Part shown: positions 2 to 15,606 of the stretch, piece after piece
Position numbering within the stretch: position 1 is the first letter of the stretch
Layout of the letters: every line of letters begins with the position of its first letter
Source: Candidatus Methanoperedens sp.
GTDB taxonomy: Archaea; Halobacteriota; Methanosarcinia; Methanosarcinales; Methanoperedenaceae
NCBI GenBank assembly: GCA_027460535.1
Contig: JAPZAR010000024.1
Span: 60,001 to 92,000, forward strand
Reading direction: 5' to 3'
DNA length: 32,000 nucleotides
The notes under the pieces: model-generated
What the model saw: the letters and a program-made list of their open reading frames with translations, nothing else
What the model was told of the DNA's origin: nothing
Database searches by the model: none
Translations under genes and position numbers: made by a program

Positions 2-1006
2 CTGAATGCGCAGGGCTATACAGCTCACGGAGTTGTAGATGGAGAGGCGGCAATCAAGGCGGCAGAAATAGAAGTTTATGATTTGATACTGATGGATATA
101 GCGCTGCCTGGTATTGATGGCTTTGATGCTACAAAAATAATCAAAAGCAAGCCTCAGTACAAAGATGTAGCAGTGATAGCATTAACGGCATATCCTCTCA
201 AAGAGAATAAAAAAAGGTTACTCGAAGCAGGTTTTGTTGATTATTTATCAAAACCAATTGATGTAGTTGCGTTCATGAAAATGATGGGGAAATACAGAAT
301 AAAATGGTATGAAAAAATACGACCATCTATAAAAATGAAAGAATGGATTAAGCCCACGGGTTTAAACGTGCTGGATAATATGATGGATGGGGGGCTTTTT
401 TCAGGTTCCCTGGTGTATATACTGTCTGACCCGCAGATCGATTCAGAGATTTTTTTATTTCACTTTACTCAACCCAGAAAGTGCTTTTACATCGTCACTG
501 AGAGAGAATCCAAGTACGTCATTCAAGAAATAGAAAAACTCGGTTTTGATATCTCAAATATTGAGTTTATAGATATTTTCAGCGTTCATCATTCTTATTT
601 GGTAAACGAAACTGACCACAAGTCACTGGAATTTGTGAAAAGCAAGTTGCAGGGTATAAAAGAAAAAGATTTAACAATAATTATAGACACTTTTAATTTT
701 TTCCCACTCTTGAATGAAGGAAGGGACAGTATAAAGGAATTTGTGAATTTTCTTTATAACTTTGCCAAAAATAATGATGCCATAATTTACCTGCTTTCAT
801 TGAGGAATACGATTGATAGCAAGATCGAGAATGAAATCATGTGGCAATGTGATGTTATTTTTGATATAAGTTGTGTGAGGGATCCGGATAAAATAATAAA
901 TGAACTTAGGATAACTAAAGCTAAGAATATCAACGCGGCAACCGATACCATCAAGTTTTTCATCAAGGGAAAAGTACTAATAGATTCTTCGAAGGAGATT
1001 GTTTAG
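2..1006 (+). CDS. Response-regulator receiver (CheY-like REC) domain fused to a degenerate KaiC/RecA-superfamily domain; 5' end runs off the window
   Basis: The frame is open from nt 2 (LNAQGYTAHGVVDGEAAIKAAEIEVYDLILMDIALPGIDG...IALTAY...LSKPI), giving the REC pattern with acceptor Asp, Thr and Lys positions. The C-terminal ~220 aa follow the KaiC-like layout (GLNVLDNMMDGGLFSGSLVYILS ... IIIDTF). The Walker-A position reads SDPQIDSE instead of GxxGxGKT. Stop codon is TAG at 1004-1006. Confidence 0.8.
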   Translation: MNAQGYTAHGVVDGEAAIKAAEIEVYDLILMDIALPGIDGFDATKIIKSKPQYKDVAVIALTAYPLKENKKRLLEAGFVDYLSKPIDVVAFMKMMGKYRIKWYEKIRPSIKMKEWIKPTGLNVLDNMMDGGLFSGSLVYILSDPQIDSEIFLFHFTQPRKCFYIVTERESKYVIQEIEKLGFDISNIEFIDIFSVHHSYLVNETDHKSLEFVKSKLQGIKEKDLTIIIDTFNFFPLLNEGRDSIKEFVNFLYNFAKNNDAIIYLLSLRNTIDSKIENEIMWQCDVIFDISCVRDPDKIINELRITKAKNINAATDTIKFFIKGKVLIDSSKEIV

Positions 1007-1136: not shown

Positions 1137-1243
1137 CAAAATCCACGCTAATAATAAAATATCCATTTTCCCATTTTTTCAGGATAATCTTAAATATAAA
1201 AACTAAGGTAATATGAGGCTCTGTTGTTCTTAAAAAGCTGGTA
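1137..1243 (+). promoter_or_regulatory. Promoter/5' leader of the hyf-like operon (copy A of a duplicated leader); TATA-like box cttaaatataaaa at about 1189-1201
   Basis: AT-rich TATA-like element about 90 nt upstream of the ATG at 1282. The whole ~107-nt segment recurs at 3331-3442 with high identity (caaaatcc...atatcca.tttc.cattttttcagg.taatcttaaata.aaa.acta..gtaat..gaggctctgtt.ttc...aaaaagctggta). Confidence 0.5.
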
Positions 1244-1281
1244 ATAATCCATGTTTTCATTTAAAATGTGAAGGTATTCTG

Positions 1282-3306
1282 ATGGTGGTTCATACCTATT
1301 TGTTCTTTGGACTTGTAATCTTTTATCTGATCGGGGCTGTACTATCTGTTATATTAAACAGGAAGGACCGACTGGTCACGTATGCTTCATTCTTGAGCGC
1401 AGCCCTGGCATCGCTGCTGGGAATAGGTTTTTCATTCTTCGTTCTCTTCGGTGAGACCTTTACTTTCGCTTTGCCTGGCCCGACTTTCTTGAATTTCAGC
1501 GTTTTTGTGGATAAGCTGTCTGCATTTTTCATACTCGTAATTTCGATCGTGGCTTTTGCAGTCTCAATATACTCTCTGGGGTACGTTCGCGAATATTTCG
1601 GGAGAAAGAATATCGGCTACCTTTGTTTCCTGTATAACATATTCATCCTTTCAATGATCCTGGTGGTCTCCTCCAGCAACACACTGATGTTCCTGATCGT
1701 CTGGGAATTGATGTCACTTGTTTCGTATTTCCTGGTGATATACGAGCATGAAGAAGCCGAGATAAGAAAAGCAGGCTTCATCTATATCGTGATGACGCAT
1801 ATCGGGACGGGATTCATCCTCATATCGCTTCTTATCCTGGCAAGCTCAAGCGGCAGTCTCGATTTCGGGACATTCCGTGGCCTGACAATGTCACCTTTTC
1901 TCAAGGATATAGCATTCCTGTTCGCCCTGATAGGCTTCGGGACAAAGGCGGGGATCGTCCCGCTGCATATATGGCTGCCTTATGCCCATCCTGCCGCGCC
2001 AAGCAATGTATCTGCGCTCATGTCCGGTGTGATGATCAAAACAGCGATCTATATGCTCATCCGGGTTTGTTTTGATTTCCTGGGCGCCAGTGTTCTGTGG
2101 TGGGGAGTGCTGCTTTTAATTATTGCATCCGCATCCGCGCTTCTTGGCGTGATGTACGCCCTGATGGAGCACGATATGAAACGCCTGCTAGCATATCACA
2201 GCGTCGAGAATATTGGAATCATTCTCATCGGGTTGGGCGTATCCATGATATTCATGTCCACCGGACACCCGGAGCTTGCCGCGTTCGGGTTGATCGCTGG
2301 TCTCTATCATACCATAAACCATGCAGTGTTCAAGTCCCTGCTTTTCATGGGAGCAGGTTCGATTATTTTTTCAACGCATACAAAGAACATCGAGGAAATG
2401 GGCGGACTTCTGAAAAAGATGCCCTGGACCGGCTTGTTTTTCCTCATAGGCTCAATATCCATTTCTGCGCTTCCGCCTTTTAACGGTTTTGTGAGCGAAT
2501 GGCTCACCTTCCATACACAGCTCCTGAGCATCAATCTCTCGGAGAATATAATAAAGATACTTGTGCTTTCAAGCGGAGCTGCGCTGGCTCTCACCGGCGC
2601 TCTTGCAGCTGCGTGCTTTGTCAAGGCTTTCGGGATAAGCTTCCTGGCCCTCCCGCGCAGCGATCATGCACGGCACGCAAAGGAGGTTCCGGGAAGCATG
2701 CTTTTCGGGATGGGGATTCTTTCTCTTCTCTGCATTGCACTCGGGGTCTTAAGTTTTTACTTCCTCCCGATCCTCGATTCGATAGCCTCGCCGCTTACGG
2801 GCACAAGTATAATCTCAAAGGTTACATTTGACCTCTCGCTCGCCGCATTGAGCCCCCAGGCAGGAAGCGTTTCTACCTTGTGGTTATTCCTCCTGCTTTT
2901 CGTTCTGGTTCCCATTCCCTTTCTACTGGCACTCGCCCTGGGTGGCAGGACACATGCAAGAACATATGAGACCTGGGGATGCGGGCAGCCAGCTACAACA
3001 GGCAGGAACGAGTACACAGCCACCGGGTTCTCAAAGCCGATACGCATGTGGTTCAGCAGCATCTATCGCTCGCACAGGGAGATACAGACAAGCTACGCCG
3101 GCTCACCCTTCTTCAAGGAGAGATTTGTCTTCGATACGCAGATAGAGCCAATTTTCGAGAAATATCTCTATGGACCTGTCGTATGGATTGCACTGTTGGT
3201 ATCCAGAATATTGAGGGTCATTCAGACAGGGAGCATACACCTGTACCTGCTCTACATCCTGATCACACTGGTTATCGCACTGATATACGTGGGAAGTGGA
3301 GGGTAA
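1282..3306 (+). CDS. HyfB-like antiporter-type membrane subunit (NuoL/HyfB family), copy 1
   Basis: 674-aa polytopic protein with the antiporter-like signature GFGTKAGIVPLHIWLPYAHPAAPSNVSALMSGVMIK. It has a HyfB-size C-terminal extension (ETWGCGQP...NEYTATGFSKPI). It is the first gene of a hyf-ordered cluster. Confidence 0.85.
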   Translation: MVVHTYLFFGLVIFYLIGAVLSVILNRKDRLVTYASFLSAALASLLGIGFSFFVLFGETFTFALPGPTFLNFSVFVDKLSAFFILVISIVAFAVSIYSLGYVREYFGRKNIGYLCFLYNIFILSMILVVSSSNTLMFLIVWELMSLVSYFLVIYEHEEAEIRKAGFIYIVMTHIGTGFILISLLILASSSGSLDFGTFRGLTMSPFLKDIAFLFALIGFGTKAGIVPLHIWLPYAHPAAPSNVSALMSGVMIKTAIYMLIRVCFDFLGASVLWWGVLLLIIASASALLGVMYALMEHDMKRLLAYHSVENIGIILIGLGVSMIFMSTGHPELAAFGLIAGLYHTINHAVFKSLLFMGAGSIIFSTHTKNIEEMGGLLKKMPWTGLFFLIGSISISALPPFNGFVSEWLTFHTQLLSINLSENIIKILVLSSGAALALTGALAAACFVKAFGISFLALPRSDHARHAKEVPGSMLFGMGILSLLCIALGVLSFYFLPILDSIASPLTGTSIISKVTFDLSLAALSPQAGSVSTLWLFLLLFVLVPIPFLLALALGGRTHARTYETWGCGQPATTGRNEYTATGFSKPIRMWFSSIYRSHREIQTSYAGSPFFKERFVFDTQIEPIFEKYLYGPVVWIALLVSRILRVIQTGSIHLYLLYILITLVIALIYVGSGG

Positions 3307-3330
3307 AACATAGGGAGACATGTATTCGGG

Positions 3331-3442
3331 CAAAATCCTACATTAATAATCAATATCCACTTTCACATTTTTTCAGGTTAATCTTAAATACAAACACTAG
3401 AGTAATGGGAGGCTCTGTTATTCCTGAAGTAAAAAGCTGGTA
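3331..3442 (+). promoter_or_regulatory. Copy B of the duplicated leader, internal to the operon; TATA-like cttaaatacaaac at about 3383-3395
   Basis: Aligns by eye over about 110 nt with 1137-1243. GGTGG Shine-Dalgarno-like motif 6 nt upstream of the ATG at 3501. Confidence 0.45.
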
Positions 3443-3500
3443 TTTAAGAATGCTATCCAAATTTTCGGTAAAAATCGAAGTGCAATAGAGTGGTGGATAC

Positions 3501-5516
3501 ATGCTTGACAAATATTTATTTTTGTTACTCATCATCTTTTATTTGATCGGTGCAACATTATCGATCATATTCAATAGAAAAGACAGGCTTTCCTCTTATG
3601 CCTCTTTCTTGAGCGCAGCAATCTCATCCATGTTAGGGATTGTTTTCTCGTTTTCCGTTATTTTCGGCGACACTTTCAGCTTTTCCTTATCAGGTTCTTC
3701 ATTCCTGAACTTCGGATTCTCCGTGGACAGGCTTGCAGCATTTTTCATTCTTGCGATATCCATTGCAGTGTTCGCGGTTTCGATCTATTCGATCGGGTAC
3801 GTGCGAGAATACTTCGGGAAAAAGAATATCGGCTACCTGGGCTTCCTTTATAACATTTTTATTCTATCCATGATCCTTGTGGTCAGCGCGAATAATGCAG
3901 TCATGTTCCTGATAGTCTGGGAACTGATGTCCCTGGTATCCTATTTCCTGGTGATATACGAACATGAAAAACCGGAAACAAGGAAGGCGGGTTTTATCTA
4001 CATAGTGATGACGCATATCGGGACCGGATTCATACTCCTCTCATTCCTGATCCTTGCAAGTTCAAGCGGCAATTTCAGTTTCGAATCATTCATGGGCGCT
4101 GGTTCAAGAATGACCCCGCTCCTGAAAGACCTCGTGTTCCTTTTCGCTCTCATAGGCTTTGGCGCCAAGGCGGGTATCGTGCCACTTCATATCTGGCTTC
4201 CCTATGCCCACCCTGCCGCGCCAAGCAATGTATCAGCCCTCATGTCCGGCGTGATGATCAAGACCGCGATCTATATGTTCATCCGTGTTTTCTTTGATTT
4301 CCTGGGCGCGGGCGTTATGTGGTGGGGATTCCTGGTGCTGTCCGTTGGCGCACTCTCGGCGATACTTGGTATAATGTATGCGGTCGTTGAACCCGATATA
4401 AAGCGGATGCTTGCCTATAGCAGCATAGAGAATATGGGGATCATCCTTCTTGGAATTGGCGCATCGATGATCTTTTTTGAAGAGGGAAATGCCGCCCTGG
4501 CGGCAATCGCGGCTATCGCAGCGCTGTATCACCTGTTAAACCACGCAGTATTCAAGGGACTATTATTCATGGGCGCAGGCTCGGTCATATTTTCAACCCA
4601 TACAAGGAATATCGAGAAACTGGGTGGCCTGATCAAGAAGATGCCATTGATGGCATTCCTTTTCCTGATAGGAGTGCTTTCCATCTCCGCCCTGCCGCCA
4701 TTTTCTGGTTTTGTGAGCGAATGGCTCACCCTTCAGTCGCTGCTTATGAGTTTCAGTTCAGGCGATTCCCTTGTAAGGATAGTACTTCCTGTCAGCGCCG
4801 CAGTCCTTGCCCTCACCGGCGCCCTTGCAGCTTTCTGTTTCCTGAAGGCTTTCGGAATAGGGTTCCTGGCGCTACCGCGAAGTGAGAACGCTGAACATGC
4901 GAAGGAGGCAAATATGCCCATGCTGCTCGGAATGGGAATTTTCGCAATATTATCCGTGCTTCTGGGTATCCTGCCTTTTTATGCCCTTCCCGTTCTTGAC
5001 AGGATCACACAGACCTTTACAGGGGCGAGCGCTTCCTTTTCATCAGGCATTTTCGGCTCGATCGTCATGCCCGCAGGGCAGATATCAGTCTCAACCCCTG
5101 CGATAGCGCTCCTGATGCTTGCGGTGCTCCCGCTCCCGTTAATAATTATGTTGATGTATAATAGCAGGAAGAATGAAACCTGGGGATGCGGGCAGCCCGT
5201 TTCCACGGCAAGGAACGAGTATACAGCCACTGCCTTTTCAAAACCCATACAGATGTGGTTCAGGAACATCTACCGCCCGGTAAGGGAATTGCGGACGATC
5301 TACTCGGTCTCGCCCTTTTTCAAAGAATCCTTCAAGTTCGATTCGCAGATAGAACAGATATTTGAACGTTATCTCTATACCCCGGTGGTAGACGGAGTTC
5401 TTGCAAAATCGAGAGTTGTAAAGATGATCCAGACAGGCAGCATCCATGCCTACCTCACCTATATCTTCGGGACCCTGGTAATTCTTATGATGTTTATAAT
5501 TTTAGGAGGCAACTAA
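3501..5516 (+). CDS. HyfB-like antiporter-type membrane subunit, copy 2 (tandem paralogue of 1282-3306)
   Basis: 671 aa, colinear with copy 1 over the full length (roughly three quarters identical by eye). Long stretches are also near-identical at nucleotide level, e.g. around ...ccctgccgcgccaagcaatgtatc...catgtccgg.gtgatgatcaa.ac.gcgatctatatg.tcatccg.gtt. Confidence 0.85.
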   Translation: MLDKYLFLLLIIFYLIGATLSIIFNRKDRLSSYASFLSAAISSMLGIVFSFSVIFGDTFSFSLSGSSFLNFGFSVDRLAAFFILAISIAVFAVSIYSIGYVREYFGKKNIGYLGFLYNIFILSMILVVSANNAVMFLIVWELMSLVSYFLVIYEHEKPETRKAGFIYIVMTHIGTGFILLSFLILASSSGNFSFESFMGAGSRMTPLLKDLVFLFALIGFGAKAGIVPLHIWLPYAHPAAPSNVSALMSGVMIKTAIYMFIRVFFDFLGAGVMWWGFLVLSVGALSAILGIMYAVVEPDIKRMLAYSSIENMGIILLGIGASMIFFEEGNAALAAIAAIAALYHLLNHAVFKGLLFMGAGSVIFSTHTRNIEKLGGLIKKMPLMAFLFLIGVLSISALPPFSGFVSEWLTLQSLLMSFSSGDSLVRIVLPVSAAVLALTGALAAFCFLKAFGIGFLALPRSENAEHAKEANMPMLLGMGIFAILSVLLGILPFYALPVLDRITQTFTGASASFSSGIFGSIVMPAGQISVSTPAIALLMLAVLPLPLIIMLMYNSRKNETWGCGQPVSTARNEYTATAFSKPIQMWFRNIYRPVRELRTIYSVSPFFKESFKFDSQIEQIFERYLYTPVVDGVLAKSRVVKMIQTGSIHAYLTYIFGTLVILMMFIILGGN

Positions 5517-6463
5517 TGAACCCCATTGCCATTGCGATCTTCCAGATAATCGTAATAATCGTACTTGCGCCGCTCCTGAGCGGCATAATGAAAAAAGTAA
5601 AGGCCTTCTTCCAGATACGCAAAGGACCGAGCATTTTCCAGCCTTACTACGATATCGCCAAGCTTTTGAGAAAAGATTCTGTGGTATCTGAGAATGCATC
5701 CTGGATTTTCCATGCTGCGCCAGTCATTTCATTTGTCGCAATACTCACAGCAGGCATGCTTATCCCGATTTACATCTCGGATATGCCTTTTGGCTTTGCG
5801 GGGGATCTCATAGCTGTTGTCTATCTTCTCGCCCTTGCAAGATTCTTTACCGCACTCGCATCCCTTGATACCGGAAGTTCCTTTGGCGGGATGGGAGGGA
5901 GCAGGGAGATGTTCGTGGCATCCATGGTCGAGCCTGCCATGATGCTTTCGATATTCGCCATAGCCCTCAATGTGGGCTCAACGAACCTGAGCTATATTTC
6001 CCAGACAGTTTCATCCATGGGGCTCGCCGCAATCTCTCCTTACCACCTGCTTGCGTTCGTGGCGCTTTTCATAATTGCGATTGCCGAGACGGGAAGGATA
6101 CCTGTAGATAACCCGGCCACGCATCTTGAACTCACGATGATCCATGAAGCCATGATACTTGAATATTCAGGAAAGCAGCTCGCTCTGGTGGAACTCAGTG
6201 CCATGATGAAACAATTGCTGGTATTTTCGCTGCTTGCAAACATCTTTTTCCCCTGGGGCATAGCATCAGGGGCAACCGTGGGAGGTATTGGCGTGGCGCT
6301 TATAGCCTTTGTAATAAAGATCGGGATTCTGGGGACAGCCATGGCAATGGTCGAGACTTCAACCGCAAAATGGAGGATGTTCAGGCTGCCGGATCTCCTC
6401 TCCGTCTCTCTCATGCTTTCATTCCTATCACTTGTTTCATTTATTATCGTAAAAGGAGGATAG
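5516..6463 (+). CDS. HyfC/HycD/NuoH-like membrane subunit
   Basis: 315 aa polytopic protein with motif ETGRIPVDNPATHLELTMIHEAMILEYSGKQLAL. Its start overlaps the stop of the preceding gene (TAATG). Confidence 0.85.
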   Translation: MNPIAIAIFQIIVIIVLAPLLSGIMKKVKAFFQIRKGPSIFQPYYDIAKLLRKDSVVSENASWIFHAAPVISFVAILTAGMLIPIYISDMPFGFAGDLIAVVYLLALARFFTALASLDTGSSFGGMGGSREMFVASMVEPAMMLSIFAIALNVGSTNLSYISQTVSSMGLAAISPYHLLAFVALFIIAIAETGRIPVDNPATHLELTMIHEAMILEYSGKQLALVELSAMMKQLLVFSLLANIFFPWGIASGATVGGIGVALIAFVIKIGILGTAMAMVETSTAKWRMFRLPDLLSVSLMLSFLSLVSFIIVKGG

Positions 6464-6466
6464 AAT

Positions 6467-7126
6467 ATGTCAGAGATCGTTTTCGGGTCAAATGTTATGC
6501 AGCTGCTTATCTCACTTATACTTGTCTCGACCTTTATGATCCTGGGTTCCACGCGCCTTTATTCATGCGTGAGAGCCTTCGGGATCCAGTCATTCCTGCT
6601 TGCATGCGTGGCCGGGATAGTGGCCTATTCAACTGGAAAAAATGACATCTATATTGTTTCCGCCCTGACATTGATAATAAAAGCGCTGGTGATCCCTTAT
6701 ATTTTCATCTACATAATCCGCGAGATCAAAGTGAAAAGGGAAGTCCAGTTGTACGTGAATATTTCCCCTTCGCTTATAATAGGCGGCATCCTGGTGGTCA
6801 TTTCATACTATCTTATACGCTCCATAAACCTTATCACAGAGCTGTCAAGTTTTGCCCTTTCTGCTTCCATGTCACTGGTATCAATCGGTCTTTTCATTAT
6901 GATCAGCCGCAAGAAAGCCATAATGCAGATGCTGGGCATCCTGATAATGGAAAACGGGCTTTTTCTTGGAGCGATATCTCTGACATACGGCATGCCTCTG
7001 CTTGTCGAACTGGGGATATTCTTCGATGTACTGATAGGCGCACTGATCATGGGTATCCTGATATTCAGGATAAATAAGACATTCGAGAGCATCGATACTG
7101 ATATGCTTAAAACTCTGATAGGTTGA
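6467..7126 (+). CDS. HyfE-like small membrane subunit (NuoK-related)
   Basis: 219 aa. ...ILIMENGLFLGAISL...LLVELGIFFDVLIGALIMGIL...LKTLIG matches the HyfE pattern (LMENG, LVE.GI..D, C-terminal L..L.G). Confidence 0.75.
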   Translation: MSEIVFGSNVMQLLISLILVSTFMILGSTRLYSCVRAFGIQSFLLACVAGIVAYSTGKNDIYIVSALTLIIKALVIPYIFIYIIREIKVKREVQLYVNISPSLIIGGILVVISYYLIRSINLITELSSFALSASMSLVSIGLFIMISRKKAIMQMLGILIMENGLFLGAISLTYGMPLLVELGIFFDVLIGALIMGILIFRINKTFESIDTDMLKTLIG

Positions 7127-7130
7127 TACC

Positions 7131-8585
7131 ATGATTGAATACCTTCTTCTCGCCCCGGTTCTCACATGCATACTGTGCTTTTTCACAAGAACGCGAAAAC
7201 AGGTGGAGACCGTGAGCTTAACAGGCTCCATAGCCACGCTTATTCTTGGCCTGGTACTTGTGGCCCAGGTGTACAAGAACAATATAATAATATCGTGGAC
7301 AAATGCCCTGTTCGCAGACATGTTCAGCGCCTTCATTGTCCTTATTGTTTCTATCGTGGGTTTTGTGGCTTCGCTCTACTCTGTGGGCTACATGGGACAT
7401 GAACTGGAACACGGCACCATAGACTTCCGAAGACTGAGAATATACTACGGTCTTTTCCACGTATTCATGTTCACCATGCTGCTTGTGGGTGTGACGAACA
7501 ACCTTGGTCTCTGGATCGCCATAGAGATGACCACCCTCGTTTCTGCGCTCCTGATGATACTTTACTCGAAAAAATCCTCCATTGAAGCGGCATGGAAATA
7601 CATGATCATATGTACCGTAGGAATAACGTTCGCGCTTTTCGGAACCATACTCACCTACTTTGCTGCTGTCAAGATCCTGGGCGAGAGCGGAGATGCGCTC
7701 AACTGGACATCACTAGTCGCTGTCGCTGACCAGTTCGACCCGACGATCATGAAGCTTGCCTTTATTTTCATTCTCATAGGTTACGGCACAAAAGCAGGCC
7801 TTGCACCCATGCATACCTGGCTTCCCGATGCCCACAGTGAAGCTCCCACGCCTGTAAGCGCGCTTCTCTCAGGCGTGCTGCTTAACTGCGCCATGTACGG
7901 CATTATCAGGTTCTACACGATCGCCACGAAATCAACGGGTGCAGTTTTTACCAGCAATCTGCTGATCATATTCGGGCTCCTGTCGCTTGGCATCGCCGTG
8001 CCTTTCATACTCCTTCAGGAAGACTACAAGCGGCTCCTTGCATACTCAAGCGTGGAACATATGGGAATCATTGCGATCGGCATAGGCTTCGGAGGTGTTT
8101 TTGGAATCTTCGGGGCGATATTGCACATGTTCAACCATGCCATGACGAAATCCCTCATGTTCTTTGGCGCGGGGAATGTGCTGCTAAAACATGATACGAA
8201 AGAGATATTCAATGTGACCGGACTTGTAAAATCAATGCCATACACAGGCGCCATGTTCGTGATCGGGGGGCTTGCCATCACGGGCTCTCCGCCTTTTTCC
8301 ATATTCATAAGCGAATTTACCATACTTGCGGCAGGGTTCTCACAGGGGCACATAATTGCCGCAGTACTGTTCCTGCTTTTTATAATAATGATATTCGCAG
8401 GCTTTTTCAACAACGTGAGCAAAATGGCTTTCGGGACACCAAAACCCGGAATTGAAAAAGGTGAGGTGAGCAGATGGACCCTGGGCGCAATGGCTATATT
8501 GATTGTTTTCGTTGTCGTGCTCGGGGTTTACATCCCGCCTTCATTCTACGAGATGATAATGAAAGTCGTACAGATTGTGAGATGA
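7131..8585 (+). CDS. HyfF/NuoN/NuoM-like antiporter-type membrane subunit
   Basis: 484 aa with GYGTKAGLAPMHTWLPDAHSEAPTPVSALLSGVLLN and LAYSSVEHMG motifs. Confidence 0.85.
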   Translation: MIEYLLLAPVLTCILCFFTRTRKQVETVSLTGSIATLILGLVLVAQVYKNNIIISWTNALFADMFSAFIVLIVSIVGFVASLYSVGYMGHELEHGTIDFRRLRIYYGLFHVFMFTMLLVGVTNNLGLWIAIEMTTLVSALLMILYSKKSSIEAAWKYMIICTVGITFALFGTILTYFAAVKILGESGDALNWTSLVAVADQFDPTIMKLAFIFILIGYGTKAGLAPMHTWLPDAHSEAPTPVSALLSGVLLNCAMYGIIRFYTIATKSTGAVFTSNLLIIFGLLSLGIAVPFILLQEDYKRLLAYSSVEHMGIIAIGIGFGGVFGIFGAILHMFNHAMTKSLMFFGAGNVLLKHDTKEIFNVTGLVKSMPYTGAMFVIGGLAITGSPPFSIFISEFTILAAGFSQGHIIAAVLFLLFIIMIFAGFFNNVSKMAFGTPKPGIEKGEVSRWTLGAMAILIVFVVVLGVYIPPSFYEMIMKVVQIVR

Positions 8586-8589
8586 GAGT

Positions 8590-10182
8590 ATGAATGAGTT
8601 AATAGATGGGATAAGAAAAGATTTCGGCAGTGATATCCTGGATGAAAAAGTTTCAGGCAACGAGACCTATTTCACAGTAAAAGAAAATGCGGCCGTGAGA
8701 ATCTGCGATCATTTGTACCACCACCTTGGCGCTGCCCTTGTTTCCATCTTCGCCACGGACCGGAGAACAAAGGAAGGATGCTTCAAAATATATTATGTGT
8801 TCTCTTTGATCAACCCCTCTGGAAAGGATGACCCCAAGACGGCAGACGCATTCTTAATAATACAGATAAATATCGATGAGAAGGCGCCGCATTTCCACTC
8901 TATTACACCCAGGATTCCTGCAGCCAACTGGTATGAGCGGGAGATCCAGGATATGTTCGGTTTGACACCCGTAGGCCATCCCGACCCGAGGAGGCTCGTC
9001 AATTTTGAGGACTGGCCTCCTAAATTATATCCACTGCGGAAGGATTTTGACATAAGGACAAAACCTGAGCGCGTTACAGGAGAATATACGTACCGCAGGG
9101 TGGAAGGTGAAGGGGTATATGAGATCCCGGTGGGACCAGTGCATGCAGGAGTGATTGAACCTGGGCATTTCAGGTTCAGTGTGGCCGGAGAGCCCGTACT
9201 CAATCTCGAGATAAGGCATTTCTATACACACAAAGGCGTGGAAAAACTCTTTGAGAATATATCCCTCGACAAAGCTGTATTCCTTGCCGAGCGCATATCT
9301 GGCGATAACTCCGTTGCGCATGCTGTGGCTTTCTGTCAGGCCGTGGAAAAGATCGCTGGTGTAGATATTCCTCCCCGCGCAAAGTACATCCGGGTAATCC
9401 TAATGGAACTTGAGCGGTTGTATAATCACATCGGGGATATGGCAGGGATCGCGACCGATGTGGCGTATGCTTTCGGGGCAGCGCATGCCAACCTGCTCAA
9501 GGAAGAGATATTACAATTGAATGAAATAGTTACAGGGAGCAGGCTTCTGCGGGGTATGAATGCCATAGGCGGCGTTCGGCGCGATATCGGTGACAAAAAA
9601 GAGATAATTTCAAAAAAACTCTCATCCTTCAGGAACGATTTCAGGGATTTGATGGAGCTTCTCTTTGGCTCGCCTTCTGTTGCGGACAGGATAGAAACTA
9701 CGGGACGCCTTTACAATGATATAGCAAGAGAGCTGCACGTAGTGGGCCCTGTGGCGCGTGCCTCCGGGATCGACAGGGACACGAGGCGCGACCATCCTTA
9801 TGCTGCATATGCCGAATTGGATTTCAAGGTGCCTGTCCTCAAGGCAGGCGATGTCAATGCCAGGACGAGAATACGCTCTGATGAGGTGTATGAATCAATA
9901 AGCATGATCGAGACGGCGCTTTCCCGTCTCCCTGATGGTGATATTAAATCAAAGGTAAAAGAAATCCCTGACGGGTATGCCCTGGGATATGCAGAGGCGC
10001 CAAGGGGAGAAACACTCTACTGGGTAATGATCGAGAATAACCGAATAGAGAGATGCAAGGTGCGAGACCCGTCGTTTTGCAACTGGCTCGCCATAGAGTA
10101 TGCGGTTCTGGACAACATCGTTCCTGACTTTCCGATAATCAATAAAAGCTTAAGTTTATCGTATTCTGGCAATGATATGTAG
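8590..10182 (+). CDS. HycE/HyfG-like 'large subunit' (NuoC-like N-domain fused to NuoD/[NiFe]-large-subunit fold) lacking all four NiFe cysteine ligands
   Basis: 530 aa. The NuoC-type motif is PRIPAANWYEREIQDMFGLTPVGHPDPRRL and the NuoD/large-subunit core is GPVHAGVIEPGHFRF. At the L1 site ERISGDNSVAH replaces ER.CG.C...H. The C-terminus SLSYSGNDM replaces DPC..C..R. Confidence 0.85.
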   Translation: MNELIDGIRKDFGSDILDEKVSGNETYFTVKENAAVRICDHLYHHLGAALVSIFATDRRTKEGCFKIYYVFSLINPSGKDDPKTADAFLIIQINIDEKAPHFHSITPRIPAANWYEREIQDMFGLTPVGHPDPRRLVNFEDWPPKLYPLRKDFDIRTKPERVTGEYTYRRVEGEGVYEIPVGPVHAGVIEPGHFRFSVAGEPVLNLEIRHFYTHKGVEKLFENISLDKAVFLAERISGDNSVAHAVAFCQAVEKIAGVDIPPRAKYIRVILMELERLYNHIGDMAGIATDVAYAFGAAHANLLKEEILQLNEIVTGSRLLRGMNAIGGVRRDIGDKKEIISKKLSSFRNDFRDLMELLFGSPSVADRIETTGRLYNDIARELHVVGPVARASGIDRDTRRDHPYAAYAELDFKVPVLKAGDVNARTRIRSDEVYESISMIETALSRLPDGDIKSKVKEIPDGYALGYAEAPRGETLYWVMIENNRIERCKVRDPSFCNWLAIEYAVLDNIVPDFPIINKSLSLSYSGNDM

Positions 10183-10190
10183 GTGGAAAG

Positions 10191-10529
10191 ATGTTCGAGA
10201 TCCTGAAACAGACCTTAAAAACAGGCACCGTAACTAGGAATTATCCCAAGAAACCTGACATAGCGCCTGTGGGGTTCCGCGGAAAACCGCAGCTTCTCTC
10301 TGACAAATGCACCTACTGCGGAGAATGCGCAACGGTATGCCCTCCGGGTGTTATCTGGCTTGAAGAAGAAAATGGTGGAAAAACGCTCATACTATCATAT
10401 TGCGGGTGCATATTCTGCGGAAGATGCGAAGAGGTCTGCCCTTACGGGGCCATCAGGCTCACGCAGGAATATGAGCTGGCGTCAAAGACCAAAGATGATC
10501 TTCTAACAAGTATATCGAGGAAGTTATGA
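10191..10529 (+). CDS. 2x[4Fe-4S] ferredoxin-type subunit (HyfH/HycF/NuoI-like, short form)
   Basis: 112 aa with two complete CxxCxxCxxxCP motifs: CTYCGECATVCP and CIFCGRCEEVCP. Confidence 0.85.
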   Translation: MFEILKQTLKTGTVTRNYPKKPDIAPVGFRGKPQLLSDKCTYCGECATVCPPGVIWLEEENGGKTLILSYCGCIFCGRCEEVCPYGAIRLTQEYELASKTKDDLLTSISRKL

Positions 10530-11014
10530 CGGTCGAAGCTGAAATCGGGATTATGGGTCAGCACCTCAACGAGAGGATAAAAAAAATATTTGGGAGATCG
10601 CTGCATATACGCGAGGTGGATGCGGGTTCGTGCAATGCCTGTGAAGTGGAGGTGAACGCTTTATCCAATCCCATATACGACATCGAGCGCTTCGGTCTCC
10701 ATATCGTGGCATCCCCCCGCCATGCAGATATGCTGCTCGTGACCGGGTCCGTGACGCGGAACATGGAACTTGCGCTCCTGAAGACCTATAATGCCACTCC
10801 TGAACCGAAGCTCGTGGCTGCCATGGGATCGTGTGCCTGCAACGGTGGTATTTTCGGCGATACTTACGCTAGCGGAGGCGGCGTGGACAGATTTATTCCC
10901 GTGGATGTGTACATTCCCGGATGCCCGCCCAGGCCACAGGCCGTGATATTCGGGCTCATGGTGGCTCTTGACAAGCTTGATCAGAAGATTAGGAAAATGG
11001 AGGTAAAGGCATGA
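10526..11014 (+). CDS. HyfI/HycG/NuoB-like small subunit with intact [4Fe-4S] ligands
   Basis: 162 aa with DAGSCNACEVE ... GSCACNGGIF ... IPGCPPRP. ATGA overlap with the preceding gene. Confidence 0.85.
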   Translation: MTVEAEIGIMGQHLNERIKKIFGRSLHIREVDAGSCNACEVEVNALSNPIYDIERFGLHIVASPRHADMLLVTGSVTRNMELALLKTYNATPEPKLVAAMGSCACNGGIFGDTYASGGGVDRFIPVDVYIPGCPPRPQAVIFGLMVALDKLDQKIRKMEVKA

Positions 11015-11445
11015 CAAAGTACGAGATACTGGTAGCCACGGACGGCTCTGAATATGGAAAGAAAGCGGAAATAGCAGCGATGAAGATAACTAGGTCATAT
11101 AATATCCGCATTGCTGCCATCTATGTCGCGGTGGGCAGCAAGGATTCGGAGCGCGAGGAGCGCGTGGCAAAAGGCGAGGAAGTTCTGAACCGCGTGGTGG
11201 AGACCGGCGCTTCCATGGGCGTTGAGGTGAACAAGCTGCTGGTCGGGGTGAGCATGCAGCGGATGCCGCAGCAGGGAGCGATGGCTGACACGATAGCGCG
11301 TGCCATTCTGGATGCTGCGGAGAAGTACAAGGCGCATACCATCGTGCTTGGAGGCAAGGGAGAGAGCGAGATCAATCCCGAGCTCGGGAGCGTGGCGCTC
11401 GCCGTGGTGAAGAAGGCAAGGTGCTCGGTGCTGGTGGCGAGATAG
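11011..11445 (+). CDS. Universal stress protein (UspA family), translationally coupled to the small subunit gene
   Basis: 144 aa. Starts MTKYEILVATDGSEYGKKA and has the ATP-type motif VLGGKGESEINPELGSVA. Its ATG overlaps the stop of 10526-11014 (ATGA). Confidence 0.8.
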   Translation: MTKYEILVATDGSEYGKKAEIAAMKITRSYNIRIAAIYVAVGSKDSEREERVAKGEEVLNRVVETGASMGVEVNKLLVGVSMQRMPQQGAMADTIARAILDAAEKYKAHTIVLGGKGESEINPELGSVALAVVKKARCSVLVAR

Positions 11446-11475: not shown

Positions 11476-11847
11476 GTGCATTTATATCTATACAAGGATT
11501 TTATATTTAAAGTAAGCATCAAAGAAGTAGGTGATTTTCTGGTTGATGTAATTGATGTGTTTGAAAAATCTATTAGATTAACTGAAAAAAGATTAGAACA
11601 TATTTTAAAACGACCAGAAATGTCCAGGCAACTTGAAAGAATCAAAGAAACATTAGCAAACCCGGATCTTATAAAAGAAAGCAACCAAGACAGCTCCGTA
11701 TGGCTTTTTTATCGCTTTTATAACATAACGCCTGTAACGGAAAAGTATTTGCTCGTTGCGGTAAGATTACTCGATGGCAATGGATTCATAATAACAGCAT
11801 TCTATACAGACAGAATTAAGAAAGGTACAACAATATGGGAAAAGTAA
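11476..11847 (+). CDS. Putative small toxin (DUF4258 / BECR-fold-like) upstream partner of a DUF2283 protein; true start uncertain
   Basis: Conserved-looking core is IRLTEKRLEHILKRPEM...IKETLANPDLIKES..DSSVWLFYRFY...KYLLVAVRLLDGNGFIITAFYTDRIKKG. TATA-like boxes (tttatatc, ttttatatttaaa) lie inside the first 40 nt of the ORF, so an in-frame GTG at 11557 is an alternative start. Family assignment is by memory of the motif only. Confidence 0.45.
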   Translation: MHLYLYKDFIFKVSIKEVGDFLVDVIDVFEKSIRLTEKRLEHILKRPEMSRQLERIKETLANPDLIKESNQDSSVWLFYRFYNITPVTEKYLLVAVRLLDGNGFIITAFYTDRIKKGTTIWEK

Positions 11848-15300: not shown

Positions 15301-15606
15301 ACTTCCATCAGCTTTTATAACATACACTCCTCGGCTACCAAAGAGCTGTGCGGGGTCAGAGGATAATGCGAAAGCAATTTTTGAGGAGTCGGGAGACCAT
15401 GCTTGAAAATCCCCATATGTATTTGGAGCACTTGCAATTGTTGTTTTCCCTGATCCATCTGGATTCATTAATGCCAAACTTAATGGCGCATTATAATTTG
15501 AACCATATTCATATGATATTTTTGTTCCTCCAGGCGACCAAGAAGCATATAAGTCCATATTATGATCTGTTGCCATTGGTGTTTGTGAAGTCCCGTCTGA
15601 GTTCAT
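12316..15606 (-). CDS. Large secreted/surface multidomain protein, main part: PD40 (TolB-like) repeats, LamG (Laminin_G_3), Big_2, PKD, clan-CD (legumain/caspase-like) domain, EF-hand-like loop, beta-sandwich, helical tail
   Basis: 1096 aa. PD40 repeats: WSPDGSKIVYFS...IDIWRMNPDGSG. LamG: aa ~197-400 (LVAEYHFDGDAKDSSGNGNDG...VIDEVRIYNSALSADEV). Big_2: aa ~403-484. PKD: aa ~486-567 (WNFGDGE...HKYKSTGVYDATLTVTD). Peptidase-like: aa ~570-850 (VVIGINEY...FYFGGHGSG...VVILDASWSGG). EF-hand-like: DLDNNGRISVEE. There is no signal peptide of its own, and it is in frame with 15622-16080 across a single TAG. Confidence 0.8.
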   Translation of the reverse strand: MNSDGTSQTPMATDHNMDLYASWSPGGTKISYEYGSNYNAPLSLALMNPDGSGKTTIASAPNTYGDFQAWSPDSSKIAFALSSDPAQLFGSRGVYVIKADGSGLTKIANGDIAEQTQSWQSEVWSPDGSKIVYFSKDSGNIDIWRMNPDGSGKEQLTTSSGDDVNPYFSPDGKRVIFESNRNGNFDIYAIELQQQGNGLVAEYHFDGDAKDSSGNGNDGTIYGNATFVQGVSGQALRFDGVDDYVKKISANGVPQGRNPITISFWTKPPNQDTDGYFVLIGQIWDSNGMNDGQYAVYQYHSSPRLGFVVGITQLLTPFPVLTANEWNYISATYDGTYRRLYLNGEEIAMDIPIIPNIRVSNLYVGNADSSLQNNKFKGVIDEVRIYNSALSADEVKAEYEKYGPSTITSITVSPSSATVVAGKTQTFTATDQNGNPVSVIWSVSDESVGTTDAGGVFKALKAGTTTVKAASGGVVGSASVTVEPIPLEATASANPTEGNVPLEVFFTGSASSGVSPYSFSWNFGDGEASTLQNPTHKYKSTGVYDATLTVTDSQGNSVSASPLQIKAFTQWAVVIGINEYTDDEGDKNSGTHWNNLDFQIDNAKRIYSTLTKYYGFPKENVHLLKDEVKNSKDNIEPEDILKEMQWLADNAKENDVVTFYFGGHGSGPVNGEPEYLRAHSNRLYENEFSAVLNQIKSKKLVVILDASWSGGFIVDNGQYSDLASKDSNGNYPAGRIVTTGCTENTGITDEDCAEWGLLKFYTTEDGLSNVFTGTGGVFTGLFDLGLRGGISKKFGNPDLDNNGRISVEEGFKFAKRNVAIVDLMGHELLPSPTHFHQKPLIYNGIGEDFILNQAYPPTTVKITIYSPANPLVIDDSGFKVGFDPMSGSSSIEILGASYTGSQTEPQVLTIPGALPGDYTVQLFGTATGTYTADLELLSTSGEIISSKTYKGSILPGQVQTASMSLSGTEMQSVAPIRMPPLIANDKLALAKYTKLELVWLKNTIAQMNIPQDVRDGLNDKLNSAIAKLDKIISELEAGNDSNAKQSIIPAKNIIQAFTNQVKAQQGKDISTEDANALRINGANILQDLEALKSLLV

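What the first reader, a model, noticed from the sequence alone, without database searches (positions are those of the whole stretch)
1282..11445. Hyf-organised membrane complex that cannot be a [NiFe] hydrogenase (Ehr-type, function unknown)
The gene order is the hyf/hyc (group 4 membrane-bound hydrogenase) layout: antiporter-like B, B', NuoH-like C, E, antiporter-like F, NuoC-NuoD-fusion large subunit G, 2x[4Fe-4S] H, NuoB-like small subunit I. The large subunit has none of the four cysteines that hold the NiFe centre (see the next finding). The electron-wire parts are intact: the small subunit keeps GSCNACE / GSCACNGG / PGCPP, and the ferredoxin subunit keeps CTYCGECATVCP and CIFCGRCEEVCP. 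No hyp maturation genes, HycI-type endopeptidase, formate dehydrogenase or HyfA-type subunit are in the window. This combination matches the poorly understood 'energy-converting hydrogenase-related' (Ehr) class that sits between group 4 hydrogenases and complex I. To my knowledge no substrate or acceptor has been established for that class. This example also has a duplicated B subunit, a translationally coupled USP gene, and a REC-domain regulator directly upstream.
Basis: partly seen in the sequence, partly recalled or inferred. Interest (0 to 1): 0.8.

Follow-up and report, generated by a model that had tools for sequence, protein, structure and literature searches.

The report
Hydrogenase-like ion pump without nickel site
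A nine-gene operon in a methane-oxidising archaeon (Candidatus Methanoperedens) encodes a membrane complex built like an energy-converting hydrogenase, but all four nickel-iron-binding cysteines are replaced; this is the known 'Ehr' class, whose function is still unsolved and whose missing cysteines were already reported for this genus.

Summary
Window 1282-11445 (+) encodes HyfB, HyfB', HyfC, HyfE, HyfF, a NuoC-NuoD-fused large subunit, a 2x[4Fe-4S] subunit, a NuoB-like subunit and a USP protein. Aligned residue by residue to E. coli HycE (7Z0S), the large subunit has RISGDN in place of RVCGIC and LSYSGND in place of PCYSCTD. All 12 Fe-S cysteines of the electron wire are kept.

This is not decay or an assembly error. 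The replacement motifs are near-invariant in all but one of the 120 closest protein clusters and in a very large bacterial and archaeal family. That family is the published Ehr class, a neighbour of group 4f hydrogenases.

The organism is Ca. Methanoperedens. Arshad 2015 called the orthologous cluster an 'Ech hydrogenase'. McGlynn 2017 already noted that it lacks both CxxC motifs. So the finding is correct but known.

- The B duplication is old (65% aa), copied its promoter region, and is lineage-specific.
- USP is a conserved neighbour; the REC gene is not.
- Relatives with no Fe-S ligands at all keep the same remodelled pocket.
- Expression in culture is very low.

Most likely function, inferred only: a ferredoxin-linked ion-translocating machine whose acceptor is not H+ (menaquinone is the best guess). 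A redox-gated antiporter is a serious rival.

The parts
1172..1260 (+). Conserved upstream element, copy 1: TATA/BRE-like 'TCAGGATAATCTTAAATATAAA', then the blocks 'GTAATATGAGGCTCTGTT' and 'AAAAAGCTGGTA'. Likely the promoter/operator of B1.
   Evidence: Sequence. The same blocks lie upstream of B genes in other Methanoperedens loci. No Rfam match and no supported RNA fold.
1282..3306 (+). B1: HyfB/NuoL-type antiporter-like subunit, 674 aa. This is the extra, more diverged paralogue.
   Evidence: NCBIfam NF005086, 744 bits against a 667 cut-off. 65% aa identity to B2 and 60% to the single B of other Methanoperedens. Keeps TM5 Glu, TM7 Lys, TM8 Lys and TM12 Lys. Aligns to HycC 7z0s_C with E=7e-78.
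3363..3450 (+). Conserved upstream element, copy 2, before B2. It was duplicated together with the B gene.
3501..5516 (+). B2: HyfB-type antiporter-like subunit, 671 aa. It is the orthologue of the single B of other Methanoperedens (69% aa).
5516..6463 (+). C: NuoH/HycD-like membrane anchor, 315 aa.
   Evidence: Pfam PF00146. HycD 7z0s_D E=7.7e-49, MbhM 1.5e-29, complex I Nad1 about 2e-11.
6467..7126 (+). E: HyfE-like membrane subunit, 219 aa, with a NuoK-like C-terminal half.
   Evidence: NCBIfam NF008556 E=9e-28, below the cut-off. Pfam PF00420 at residues 131-216.
7131..8585 (+). F: HyfF/NuoM-N-type antiporter-like subunit, 484 aa.
   Evidence: NCBIfam NF005044, 570 bits against a 610 cut-off. 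TM5 Glu, TM7 Lys and TM12 Lys are kept; the TM8 position is Asn.
8590..10182 (+). G: large subunit, a NuoC-NuoD fusion of 530 aa. All four NiFe ligands are replaced (S237, N240, S524, G527). Family-specific D239 and D290. No C-terminal extension.
   Evidence: AF2 model pTM 0.90; best PDB match HycE with TM 0.92.
10191..10529 (+). H: 2x[4Fe-4S] HycF/NuoI-like subunit, 112 aa. It lacks the C-terminal ~70 residues of HycF. Presumed entry point for ferredoxin.
10526..11014 (+). I: NuoB/HycG-like small subunit, 162 aa, with all four ligands of the proximal [4Fe-4S] cluster.
   Evidence: HycG E=7e-46, MbhJ 7e-43, cysteines aligned. NCBIfam NF005012, 144.9 bits against a 116 cut-off.
11011..11445 (+). 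USP-family protein, 144 aa. Its start overlaps the stop of I. It is a conserved last gene of the cluster in Methanoperedens and a Methanosarcinales relative.
   Evidence: Pfam PF00582. Same position in L081-L088 and L001.

Best explanation
This is the Ca. Methanoperedens version of the Ehr (energy-converting-hydrogenase-related) complex. It is a complex-I-like membrane machine descended from Hyf/group-4f-type [NiFe] hydrogenases. It has lost the NiFe centre and cannot make or use H2.

Shown here:
- The subunit set.
- Loss of all four ligands.
- An intact three-cluster electron wire (2x[4Fe-4S] in H, one [4Fe-4S] in I).
- Intact Lys/Glu ion-transfer residues in three antiporter-like subunits plus an extra paralogue.
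- Strong purifying selection on a rebuilt pocket: S237-G-D239, D290, S524-Y-S-G527-x-D529.

Inferred:
- Reduced ferredoxin from formylmethanofuran dehydrogenase or CO dehydrogenase docks on the short NuoI-like subunit H.
- Electrons run through H to the proximal cluster in I and leave to an acceptor other than protons.
- That redox step drives H+ or Na+ across the membrane through C/E and the B1/B2/F modules. With reversed flow it could use the ion gradient to reduce ferredoxin.
- In Methanoperedens the most plausible acceptor is menaquinone. That would make the complex a ferredoxin:menaquinone oxidoreductase, filling the gap left by the absence of Rnf.
- It is a conditional, not a main, route, because it is barely transcribed in enrichment cultures.

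Confidence that it is an Ehr complex and not a hydrogenase is about 0.95. Confidence in the ferredoxin-driven oxidoreductase mechanism is about 0.4, and in menaquinone specifically about 0.25.
For: Identity:
- Alignments to HycE, MbhL and Nqo4, HycG and MbhJ, HycF, HycD and HycC.
- Pfam and NCBIfam assignments.
- AF2 model with TM 0.92 to HycE.

Not decay:
- L1 'ER[IV]SGDxxxAH' and L2 'LSY[SA]GxD' are kept in all but one of the 120 closest clusters and in most 50%-identity representatives.
- The positions that separate Ehr from sister hydrogenases are S237, D239 (100%), D290 (93%), P494, S524 (100%) and G527 (100%).

Electron wire:
- Nine Cys in H, including both CxxCxxCxxxCP motifs, and four ligand Cys in I.
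- The four small-subunit ligands are kept in 57 of 68 Ehr loci.

Ion modules: TM5 Glu, TM7 Lys and TM12 Lys are kept in B1, B2 and F.

No dedicated donor gene (Fdh, HyfA/HycB, NuoEF) was found in the flanks of 80 loci, and H lacks the HycF C-terminal part. Both fit a soluble ferredoxin donor, as in Ech and MBH.

Physiological niche:
- Methanoperedenaceae have menaquinone and no Rnf, and ferredoxin re-oxidation is unresolved (PMC7327174).
- The orthologous genes rise about 7-10-fold in TPM with CO plus nitrate, in parallel with the Rieske/bc1 genes (PMC13079737 suppl. data 9).

Precedents, from established knowledge: complex I/Fpo and P. furiosus MBS are NiFe-less descendants of group 4 hydrogenases that still pump ions by reducing another acceptor.
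Against: - No quinone-site signature. Nqo4 Tyr87 aligns to invariant G238 and His38 to invariant I189; only Asp139 has a counterpart, D290.
- The NuoH-like subunit is far closer to HycD (8e-49) than to quinone-reducing Nad1 (2e-11) or MbsM (3e-11).
- Transcripts of the orthologue in Ca. M. BLZ2 are about 1-16 TPM against about 59,500 for mcrA, even when ferredoxin flux is high. RPKM was 52-80 in Arshad 2015.
- Eleven Ehr loci (CPR bacteria, Methanosarcina, Dehalococcoidales and others) have lost the small-subunit cluster ligands. They still keep the same beta1-beta2 loop, SGD, D290 (9 of the 11) and LSYxGxD. The rebuilt pocket therefore does not need an adjacent Fe-S cluster.
- Ehr with a full wire also occurs in an Acetobacterium MAG (L018). 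That genus is known to lack quinones (own knowledge).
- No activity has been measured for any Ehr complex.
Confidence: 0.4

Rival explanations
1. Redox-gated or purely secondary cation/proton antiporter. The conserved job of Ehr would be Mrp-like ion exchange by the membrane arm. The rebuilt pocket in the large subunit would be a proton or cation site that talks to the membrane through the invariant beta1-beta2 loop. In this clade the ferredoxin-fed Fe-S wire would only report the redox state of the cell, with no net electron throughput, and the USP protein would add nucleotide-dependent control.
For: - Cluster-free Ehr variants keep the pocket and the loop.
- The pocket gains two invariant carboxylates, D239 and D290.
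- No acceptor site is recognisable.
- Expression is very low and condition-dependent.
- USP is a conserved last gene. USP domains are common regulators of cation transporters (own knowledge).
- Regulators are the only recurrent neighbours across the family: an ArsR-type HTH in 11 loci and REC proteins in 10 of 80 loci.
Against: - The twelve Fe-S ligand cysteines are kept throughout the clade. That is a large investment for a sensor.
- No Fe-S-gated antiporter is known.
- All characterised relatives with a peripheral arm are turnover-driven pumps.
- USP transcripts did not follow the other genes in BLZ2, although counts are near noise.
Confidence: 0.3
2. The same ferredoxin-driven pump, but with a soluble cytoplasmic acceptor reduced at or near the proximal cluster, as polysulfide is in P. 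furiosus MBS. Candidates are sulfane sulfur or another small oxidant.
For: - MBS is a precedent: a NiFe-less large subunit with catalysis at the proximal cluster (own knowledge of Yu et al. 2020; 6u8y chains are hit).
- The subunits are hydrogenase-like rather than complex-I-like.
- Ehr with a full wire occurs in organisms without quinones (L018).
Against: - The large subunit is less similar to MbsL (2.6e-33) than to HycE, MbhL or NuoD.
- The Mrp-type small subunits of MBS are absent.
- The pocket is also conserved where the cluster is absent.
- No sulfur-metabolism genes are linked.
Confidence: 0.12
3. A hydrogenase after all, using non-cysteine ligands or a different metal site.
For: - The fold, the beta1-beta2 loop with its conserved Glu, and the small subunit are all hydrogenase-like.
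- Arshad 2015 treated it as a possibly functional Ech.
Against: - All four ligands are replaced by Ser, Asn, Ser and Gly.
- No [NiFe] hydrogenase without these cysteines is known.
- There are no hyp or hycI genes in the window.
- Ehr expression did not respond to H2 in Nitrospira moscoviensis (PMC12342949).
- McGlynn 2017 rejects the idea for this genus.
Confidence: 0.02
4. An assembly error or a decaying pseudo-operon.
For: - One public MAG contig (L082) departs from the window sequence inside B1 at position 1783.
- Expression is very low.
Against: - All reading frames are intact.
- The same protein is found on five independent contigs.
- Orthologues at 70-98% identity occur in more than 100 clusters from many samples with identical motifs.
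- B1 and B2 are 65% identical, so they are not a collapsed repeat.
Confidence: 0.01

Closest known systems
Ehr, Ech/energy-converting-hydrogenase-related complexes (Geobacter EhrA-D, L, S; Coppi 2005; Marreiros 2013)
   Same: The large subunit is homologous to group 4 hydrogenases but lacks both CxxC motifs. The subunit set is NuoL-like, NuoH-like, HyfE-like and NuoM/N-like, plus L and S. Function is unknown. The same motif family occurs in Nitrospira, ammonia-oxidising archaea, CPR bacteria and Acidobacteriota.
   Different: This version carries a separate 2x[4Fe-4S] subunit H, which many Ehr loci lack or fuse to S. It also has a second HyfB paralogue and a coupled USP gene.
The 'Ech hydrogenase' of Ca. 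Methanoperedens nitroreducens BLZ1/ANME2D (Arshad 2015; re-read by McGlynn 2017)
   Same: It is the orthologous cluster. The published locus tags give the order A, B, x, x, E, F, C, which matches HyfB, C, E, F, G, H, I. The large subunit is 75-80% identical. The lack of CxxC was already noted.
   Different: Those genomes have one B gene. The window lineage and one sister lineage have two. It is not a six-subunit Ech; it has the Hyf-type membrane arm.
E. coli hydrogenase 4 (HyfABCDEFGHI) and group 4f [NiFe] hydrogenases
   Same: The gene order is largely the same (here the second antiporter-like gene sits before C, not after it), with three antiporter-like subunits, a fused NuoC-NuoD large subunit and HyfE. 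Sister sequences share the 'NKSFxL.Y..xD' C-terminus.
   Different: Those enzymes keep 'CGxC' and 'CY[SA]C'. There is no HyfA, and no formate dehydrogenase or formate channel. The second antiporter-like subunit is a B paralogue rather than a HyfD.
E. coli formate hydrogenlyase FHL-1 (HycB-G, PDB 7Z0S)
   Same: It gives the best solved-structure match for C, G, H, I and B: E values of 8e-49, 1e-108, 5e-25, 7e-46 and 7e-78. TM score is 0.92 for G.
   Different: FHL-1 has a NiFe site, only one antiporter-like subunit, the HycB/FdhF input module, and a longer HycF.
Respiratory complex I, Fpo and NDH-1
   Same: Each is a NiFe-less descendant of the same module, with three antiporter-like subunits, an N2-type cluster, and an Asp equivalent to Nqo4 D139.
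   Different: There are no counterparts of Tyr87 or His38. There are no NuoA or NuoJ genes. Similarity to NuoH is weak.
P. furiosus MBS (Mbx), PDB 6U8Y
   Same: It is a hydrogenase-derived ion pump without a NiFe centre and fed by ferredoxin.
   Different: Similarity is lower than to FHL, MBH or NuoD. MBS has Mrp-type small subunits, which are absent here.
Mrp cation/proton antiporter
   Same: MrpA/MrpD-type subunits with the same Lys/Glu pattern.
   Different: Mrp has no peripheral arm. MrpB, C, E, F and G are absent here.

Membership tests
[NiFe] hydrogenase, group 4 (Hyc/Hyf/Ech/Mbh) | L1 motif RxCGxCxxxH with two Cys ligands in the large subunit | tested here: not met
   Query RISGDNSVAH lies opposite HycE RVCGICGFAH and MbhL RMCGICSFSH.
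[NiFe] hydrogenase, group 4 (Hyc/Hyf/Ech/Mbh) | L2 motif (D)PCxxCxx(H/R) with two Cys ligands at the C-terminus | tested here: not met
   Query LSYSGND lies opposite HycE PCYSCTD. The protein ends one residue later.
[NiFe] hydrogenase, group 4 (Hyc/Hyf/Ech/Mbh) | Small subunit with four Cys ligands for the proximal [4Fe-4S] cluster | tested here: met
   C36, C39, C103 and C133 align to the HycG and MbhJ cysteines.
[NiFe] hydrogenase, group 4 (Hyc/Hyf/Ech/Mbh) | Maturation genes (hypA-F, HycI-type protease) in the genome | not testable with these tools
   None are in the 32-kb window. The rest of the genome could not be searched.
Ehr complex | Large subunit homologous to group 4 hydrogenases but lacking the NiFe-binding cysteines | tested here: met
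Ehr complex | Subunit set: NuoL-like, NuoH-like, HyfE-like, NuoM/N-like, L and S | tested here: met
   The same core is found in 80 loci.
Ehr complex | Phylogenetic position next to group 4f hydrogenases | tested here: inconclusive
   Cys-bearing sequences with the same NKSF...Y..xD C-terminus are the nearest relatives. However, the tree is a rough NJ tree without labelled HydDB references. The 4f label comes from the literature.
Hyf-type complex (E. coli hydrogenase 4) | HyfB equivalog | tested here: met
   NF005086: 744 bits (B1) and 721 bits (B2) against a cut-off of 667.
Hyf-type complex (E. coli hydrogenase 4) | HyfA/HycB-type poly-ferredoxin and linked formate dehydrogenase | tested here: not met
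   Absent from the window and from the flanks of related loci.
Complex I / Fpo / NDH-1 (quinone or phenazine reductase) | Quinone-head ligands Tyr87 and His38 (T. thermophilus Nqo4 numbering) | tested here: not met
   They align to G238 and I189, both invariant in the family.
Complex I / Fpo / NDH-1 (quinone or phenazine reductase) | Asp139 of Nqo4, the partner of His38 | tested here: met
   D290 aligns to D139. It is 93% conserved in Ehr, and Gly in 74% of sister hydrogenases. MbhL also has Asp at this position, so it is not diagnostic.
Complex I / Fpo / NDH-1 (quinone or phenazine reductase) | NuoA, NuoJ and NuoK membrane subunits, and a NuoH that forms the quinone tunnel | tested here: not met
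   Only a NuoK-like half of HyfE is present. Subunit C matches HycD at 8e-49 and Nad1 at 2e-11.
MBS/Mbx sulfane-sulfur reductase | MbsL-type large subunit with Mrp-type small membrane subunits | tested here: not met
   6u8y_L scores 2.6e-33, weaker than HycE, MbhL or NuoD. There are no MrpB/C/E/F/G-like genes.
Mrp antiporter | Seven-subunit MrpA-G set without a peripheral arm | tested here: not met
   Only MrpA/D-type homologues are present, and a peripheral arm is present.

The most novel reading that the evidence does not exclude
The rebuilt pocket of the large subunit (S237-G-D239, D290, S524-Y-S-G527-x-D529) and the invariant beta1-beta2 loop are kept even in relatives that have no Fe-S cluster at all. 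This pocket may therefore be a non-redox proton, cation or ligand site. Ehr would then be a coupling device of a kind not yet described. In Methanoperedens it would be a ferredoxin-redox-gated ion translocator, with alternative B1/B2 isoforms and USP control, rather than an oxidoreductase with turnover.
Probability: 0.28. Interest if true: 0.7.

Novelty: already known. Interest (0 to 1): 0.35.

Why it matters
Ehr complexes are widespread. About half of Nitrospirales genomes carry one, as do many ammonia-oxidising archaea, Acidobacteriota, CPR bacteria and Methanoperedens, and no function has been shown for any of them.

In Methanoperedens the membrane route for ferredoxin re-oxidation is an open gap in every metabolic model: there is no Rnf and no true Ech. 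If this complex moved electrons from ferredoxin to menaquinone with four or five ion-pumping channels, it would change the energy yield calculated for nitrate- or metal-dependent methane oxidation.

The practical value of this window is modest. It corrects a persistent mis-annotation ('Ech hydrogenase', 'NADH-quinone oxidoreductase subunit C'). It also adds comparative facts that narrow the hypotheses: the signature residues, the cluster-free variants that keep the pocket, the conserved USP, the duplicated B with its own promoter, and the very low expression.

Tried and rejected
- **Structured RNA or riboswitch in the conserved upstream element.** No Rfam match at E<=1, and RNAalifold found no compensatory pairs. 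I read it as a promoter/operator.
- **Search for a conserved redox partner around 80 related loci.** ORFs were clustered all-against-all. Only generic ABC ATPases, ArsR-type regulators and REC proteins recur. No formate dehydrogenase, NuoEF, Hdr or cytochrome genes were found.
- **Quinone-site test by alignment to Nqo4.** It failed for Tyr87 and His38.
- **The genome-contig scan.** Close contexts were obtained through exact-protein look-ups instead.
- **Single-chain AF2 model.** It confirms the fold, but the two segments that would line the pocket (182-196 and 526-530) have pLDDT below 50 without partner subunits. No pocket geometry could be read from it, and no multimer tool was available.
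- **Reading the salt-stress transcriptome paper of Methanoperedens.** This would have tested the antiporter rival, but the paper cap blocked it.
- **Assembly-artefact reading of the B duplication.** Rejected: B1 and B2 are 65% aa and 71% nt identical, and both are present in a second lineage.

Full report
**What is there.** On the + strand of window 1282-11445 lie nine tightly packed genes. Pfam and NCBIfam identify them as follows:
- Two HyfB-type antiporter-like subunits: B1 at 1282-3306 and B2 at 3501-5516. Both pass NCBIfam's curated cut-off for hydrogenase 4 subunit B.
- A NuoH/HycD-like anchor, C, at 5516-6463.
- A HyfE-like subunit, E, at 6467-7126.
- A HyfF-type antiporter-like subunit, F, at 7131-8585.
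- A fused NuoC-NuoD large subunit, G, at 8590-10182.
- A 112-aa 2x[4Fe-4S] protein, H, at 10191-10529.
- A NuoB-like small subunit, I, at 10526-11014.
- A USP-family protein at 11011-11445.

Stops and starts overlap at B2/C, H/I and I/USP. The best solved-structure relatives of B, C, G, H and I are all chains of E. coli formate hydrogenlyase 7Z0S. An AlphaFold2 model of G (pTM 0.90) superposes on HycE with TM 0.92.

**The missing NiFe site.** In the phmmer alignment to HycE (E=1.4e-108 over residues 23-529), query RISGDNSVAH lies opposite RVCGICGFAH, and LSYSGND lies opposite PCYSCTD. The four ligand positions are S237, N240, S524 and G527. The protein ends one residue after the former L2 motif.

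The electron wire is intact. C36, C39, C103 and C133 of I align to the proximal-cluster ligands of HycG and MbhJ. H carries both CxxCxxCxxxCP motifs and corresponds to the first 108 residues of HycF.

No hyp, hycI, formate dehydrogenase or HyfA-type gene is in the window.

**Not an error, not decay.** The exact large-subunit protein occurs on five independent contigs. All but one of the 120 closest 90%-identity clusters show the same L1 'ER[IV]SGDxxxAH' and, where the C-terminus is present, the same L2 'LSY[SA]GxD'. The exception, P0116 at 54% identity, has 'ERICGVCSFSH' and 'LCYSCTDL' and is a true hydrogenase.

Among 131 near-full-length representatives of 50%-identity clusters, 91 have none of the four cysteines and 28 have all four. 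Comparing 57 Cys-less sequences with 19 sister hydrogenases gives six discriminating positions: S237 (Cys), D239 (Val/Ile/Ala), D290 (Gly), P494 (Ala), S524 (Cys) and G527 (Cys). D239, S524 and G527 are 100% conserved. The site was rebuilt and then held under selection.

**Which family.** A scan of one genome per species found the same B-C-E-F-G-(H)-I core with the same motifs in many groups:
- Nitrospira, Acidobacteriota and Verrucomicrobiota
- Firmicutes
- ammonia-oxidising archaea
- CPR bacteria, Omnitrophota and Rokubacteria
- Methanosarcina and Methanomassiliicoccales

This is the class the literature calls Ehr: related to group 4 (4f) hydrogenases, lacking the CxxC motifs, function unknown (PMC6349859, PMC7894505, PMC10284858, PMC10432482, PMC7304191, PMC12342949). 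No later paper with a structure or an activity was found.

**Organism and prior art.** The window proteins are deposited as Ca. Methanoperedens sp. (MCZ7357292.1, annotated 'NADH-quinone oxidoreductase subunit C'). The window is 100% identical to a Logan contig over positions 1-20182.
- Arshad et al. 2015 listed an 'Ech hydrogenase lacking EchD' in M. nitroreducens. Its locus tags give the order A, B, x, x, E, F, C, which is this cluster.
- Chadwick et al. 2022 repeat that Ech homologues occur in ANME-2d.
- McGlynn 2017 states that this homologue lacks the two CxxC motifs and cannot work in hydrogen metabolism.
- Leu et al. 2020 do not mention it and leave ferredoxin re-oxidation open.

The central point of the finding is therefore already published for this genus.

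**The three 'extras'.**
- *B duplication.* B1 and B2 are 65% identical in protein and 71% in DNA, so the duplication is old. B2 is the orthologue of the single B of other Methanoperedens (69%, against 60% for B1). A sister lineage whose G is 83% identical also has both copies. Other Methanoperedens have one. The duplication carried about 90 bp of upstream sequence with it (1172-1260 and 3363-3450). This stretch holds a TATA/BRE-like box and two conserved blocks that also precede B in other Methanoperedens. It has no Rfam match and no supported fold. B1 may therefore be transcribed on its own. It may be either a fourth pumping module or an alternative isoform of B2. Both keep the full C-terminal domain.
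- *USP.* It follows I with overlapping or abutting stop and start codons in every Methanoperedens locus and in a Methanosarcinales relative.
- *REC gene.* It is cut by the window edge. It encodes REC plus a KaiC-like ATPase. Other genes replace it in related genomes: FEN1 in one and an rRNA methyltransferase in another. Across the wider family, however, small REC proteins (10 loci) and ArsR-type regulators (11 loci) are the only recurrent neighbours.

**What bears on mechanism.** Points in favour of a working ion-translocating redox machine:
- All 12 Fe-S ligands are kept.
- B1, B2 and F keep the TM5 Glu, TM7 Lys and TM12 Lys of antiporter-like subunits. The TM8 Lys is present in B1 and B2 and is Asn in F.
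- The beta1-beta2 loop VGPxHAGxIEPGHFRF is invariant.
- There is no dedicated donor module, and H is shortened. Both fit direct docking of ferredoxin.
- Methanoperedens has menaquinone and lacks Rnf.
- The span from ferredoxin to menaquinone is about 0.4 V (own knowledge). That is of the size complex I uses for four protons.
- In Ca. M. BLZ2 the orthologous genes rise from about 1-2 to 9-16 TPM with CO plus nitrate, together with the bc1 genes.

Points against a quinone reductase:
- Tyr87 and His38 of Nqo4 align to invariant G238 and I189. Only D139 has a counterpart, D290, and MbhL has that Asp too.
- C is far closer to HycD than to Nad1.
- Expression is three to four orders of magnitude below mcrA.

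**A new comparative point.** Of 68 complete Ehr small subunits, 57 keep the four ligands. Eleven have lost them; these come from CPR bacteria, Methanosarcina, Dehalococcoidales, Bdellovibrionales, Thermoleophilia and others. Yet their large subunits keep the loop, SGD, D290 (in 9 of the 11) and LSYxGxD. The rebuilt pocket is therefore conserved whether or not a cluster sits next to it. That is hard to reconcile with the pocket being a redox-catalytic site. It raises the standing of a non-redox, ion- or proton-handling role.

**Verdict.** This is an Ehr complex and not a hydrogenase (about 0.95).
- I consider a ferredoxin-fed, ion-translocating oxidoreductase with a non-proton acceptor the most likely mechanism for this three-cluster version (about 0.4). 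Menaquinone is the leading candidate acceptor in Methanoperedens (about 0.25).
- A redox-gated or secondary antiporter is a close rival (about 0.3).
- An MBS-like soluble-acceptor enzyme is a lesser rival (about 0.12).

None of these is shown. The steps from 'electrons enter through H' onward are inference.

The finding is correct, but the class is known and the Cys-less state was already reported for this genus, so novelty is low. Interest is moderate only because the function of a very widespread complex remains open.

Noticed in passing
window 1172-1260 and 3363-3450: An ~90-bp non-coding element is present in two copies, one before each HyfB paralogue. It contains a TATA/BRE-like box and the blocks GTAATnnGAGGCTCTGTT and AAAAAGCTGGTA. 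It is conserved upstream of the operon in other Methanoperedens. There is no Rfam hit and no covariation, so it is probably a promoter plus operator.
   Followed up: partly
window 1783 (inside B1); L082 2586: The NCBI MAG contig JAPZAT010000043.1 matches the window only from 1783 onward. Upstream it carries different genes (SpoU methylase, Memo) and a B1 cut to 504 aa. A Logan contig matches the window 100% from position 1. One of the two assemblies is probably chimeric at this point, or the strains differ.
   Followed up: partly
L029, L034, L039, L049, L051, L065, L067, L068, L071, L075, L077: These Ehr loci have a small subunit that has lost the [4Fe-4S] ligands (patterns such as DTDN, TCDD and SEGD). 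They include CPR bacteria and Methanosarcina sp. Mfa9. Their large subunits still keep the SGD / LSYxGxD pocket and the beta1-beta2 loop. They are cofactor-free 'hydrogenase' arms.
   Followed up: partly
L021 4772-19859; L079 1-14147: Two Nitrospirota genomes carry two complete Ehr clusters (B-C-E-F-G-I) back to back. The large-subunit motifs differ between the two copies (SGT against SGD).
   Followed up: no
P0112 (WP_019178467.1), Methanomassiliicoccus luminyensis: A cultured methanogen has a Cys-less Ehr-type large subunit (54% identical, ERISGDTTVAH / LSYSGNDL). Its accession lies four numbers from the published Ech1 genes (WP_019178471-76), which suggests the two clusters are adjacent. 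It could serve as an experimental host.
   Followed up: no
window 83-1006 (+): This gene is cut by the window start. It encodes a REC receiver domain fused to a KaiC/RecA-like ATPase (DUF7125), 353 aa in the full contig. It is not a conserved neighbour of the operon.
   Followed up: partly
window 11476-11847 (+) and the 77-aa ORF after it: A PBECR2-family (Barnase/EndoU/RelE-like) nuclease ORF with a small partner ORF sits directly after USP. It is a likely toxin-antitoxin pair. HicAB occupies the same place in another Methanoperedens (L083).
   Followed up: no
window 12316-15606 (-) and 15622-16116 (-): A 1096-aa secreted protein combines PD40/Tricorn beta-propeller, LamG, Big_2 and PKD domains with a caspase-like peptidase C14 domain. 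A 164-aa PD40 protein lies next to it.
   Followed up: no
window 30433-31229 (-): A weak PIN-domain ORF (160 aa) with its stop/start overlapping a UPF0175/ribbon-helix-helix ORF (104 aa). It is a likely VapBC-type toxin-antitoxin pair beside the ribosomal protein operon.
   Followed up: no
PMC13079737 supplementary data 9: In Ca. M. BLZ2 the gene labelled echA (PADDDONK_03934, 102-690 TPM) is far from the Ehr cluster (01886-01889, 1-16 TPM). It is clearly a different, much more highly expressed antiporter-like gene, so published 'Ech' expression values for this genus mix unrelated loci.
   Followed up: no
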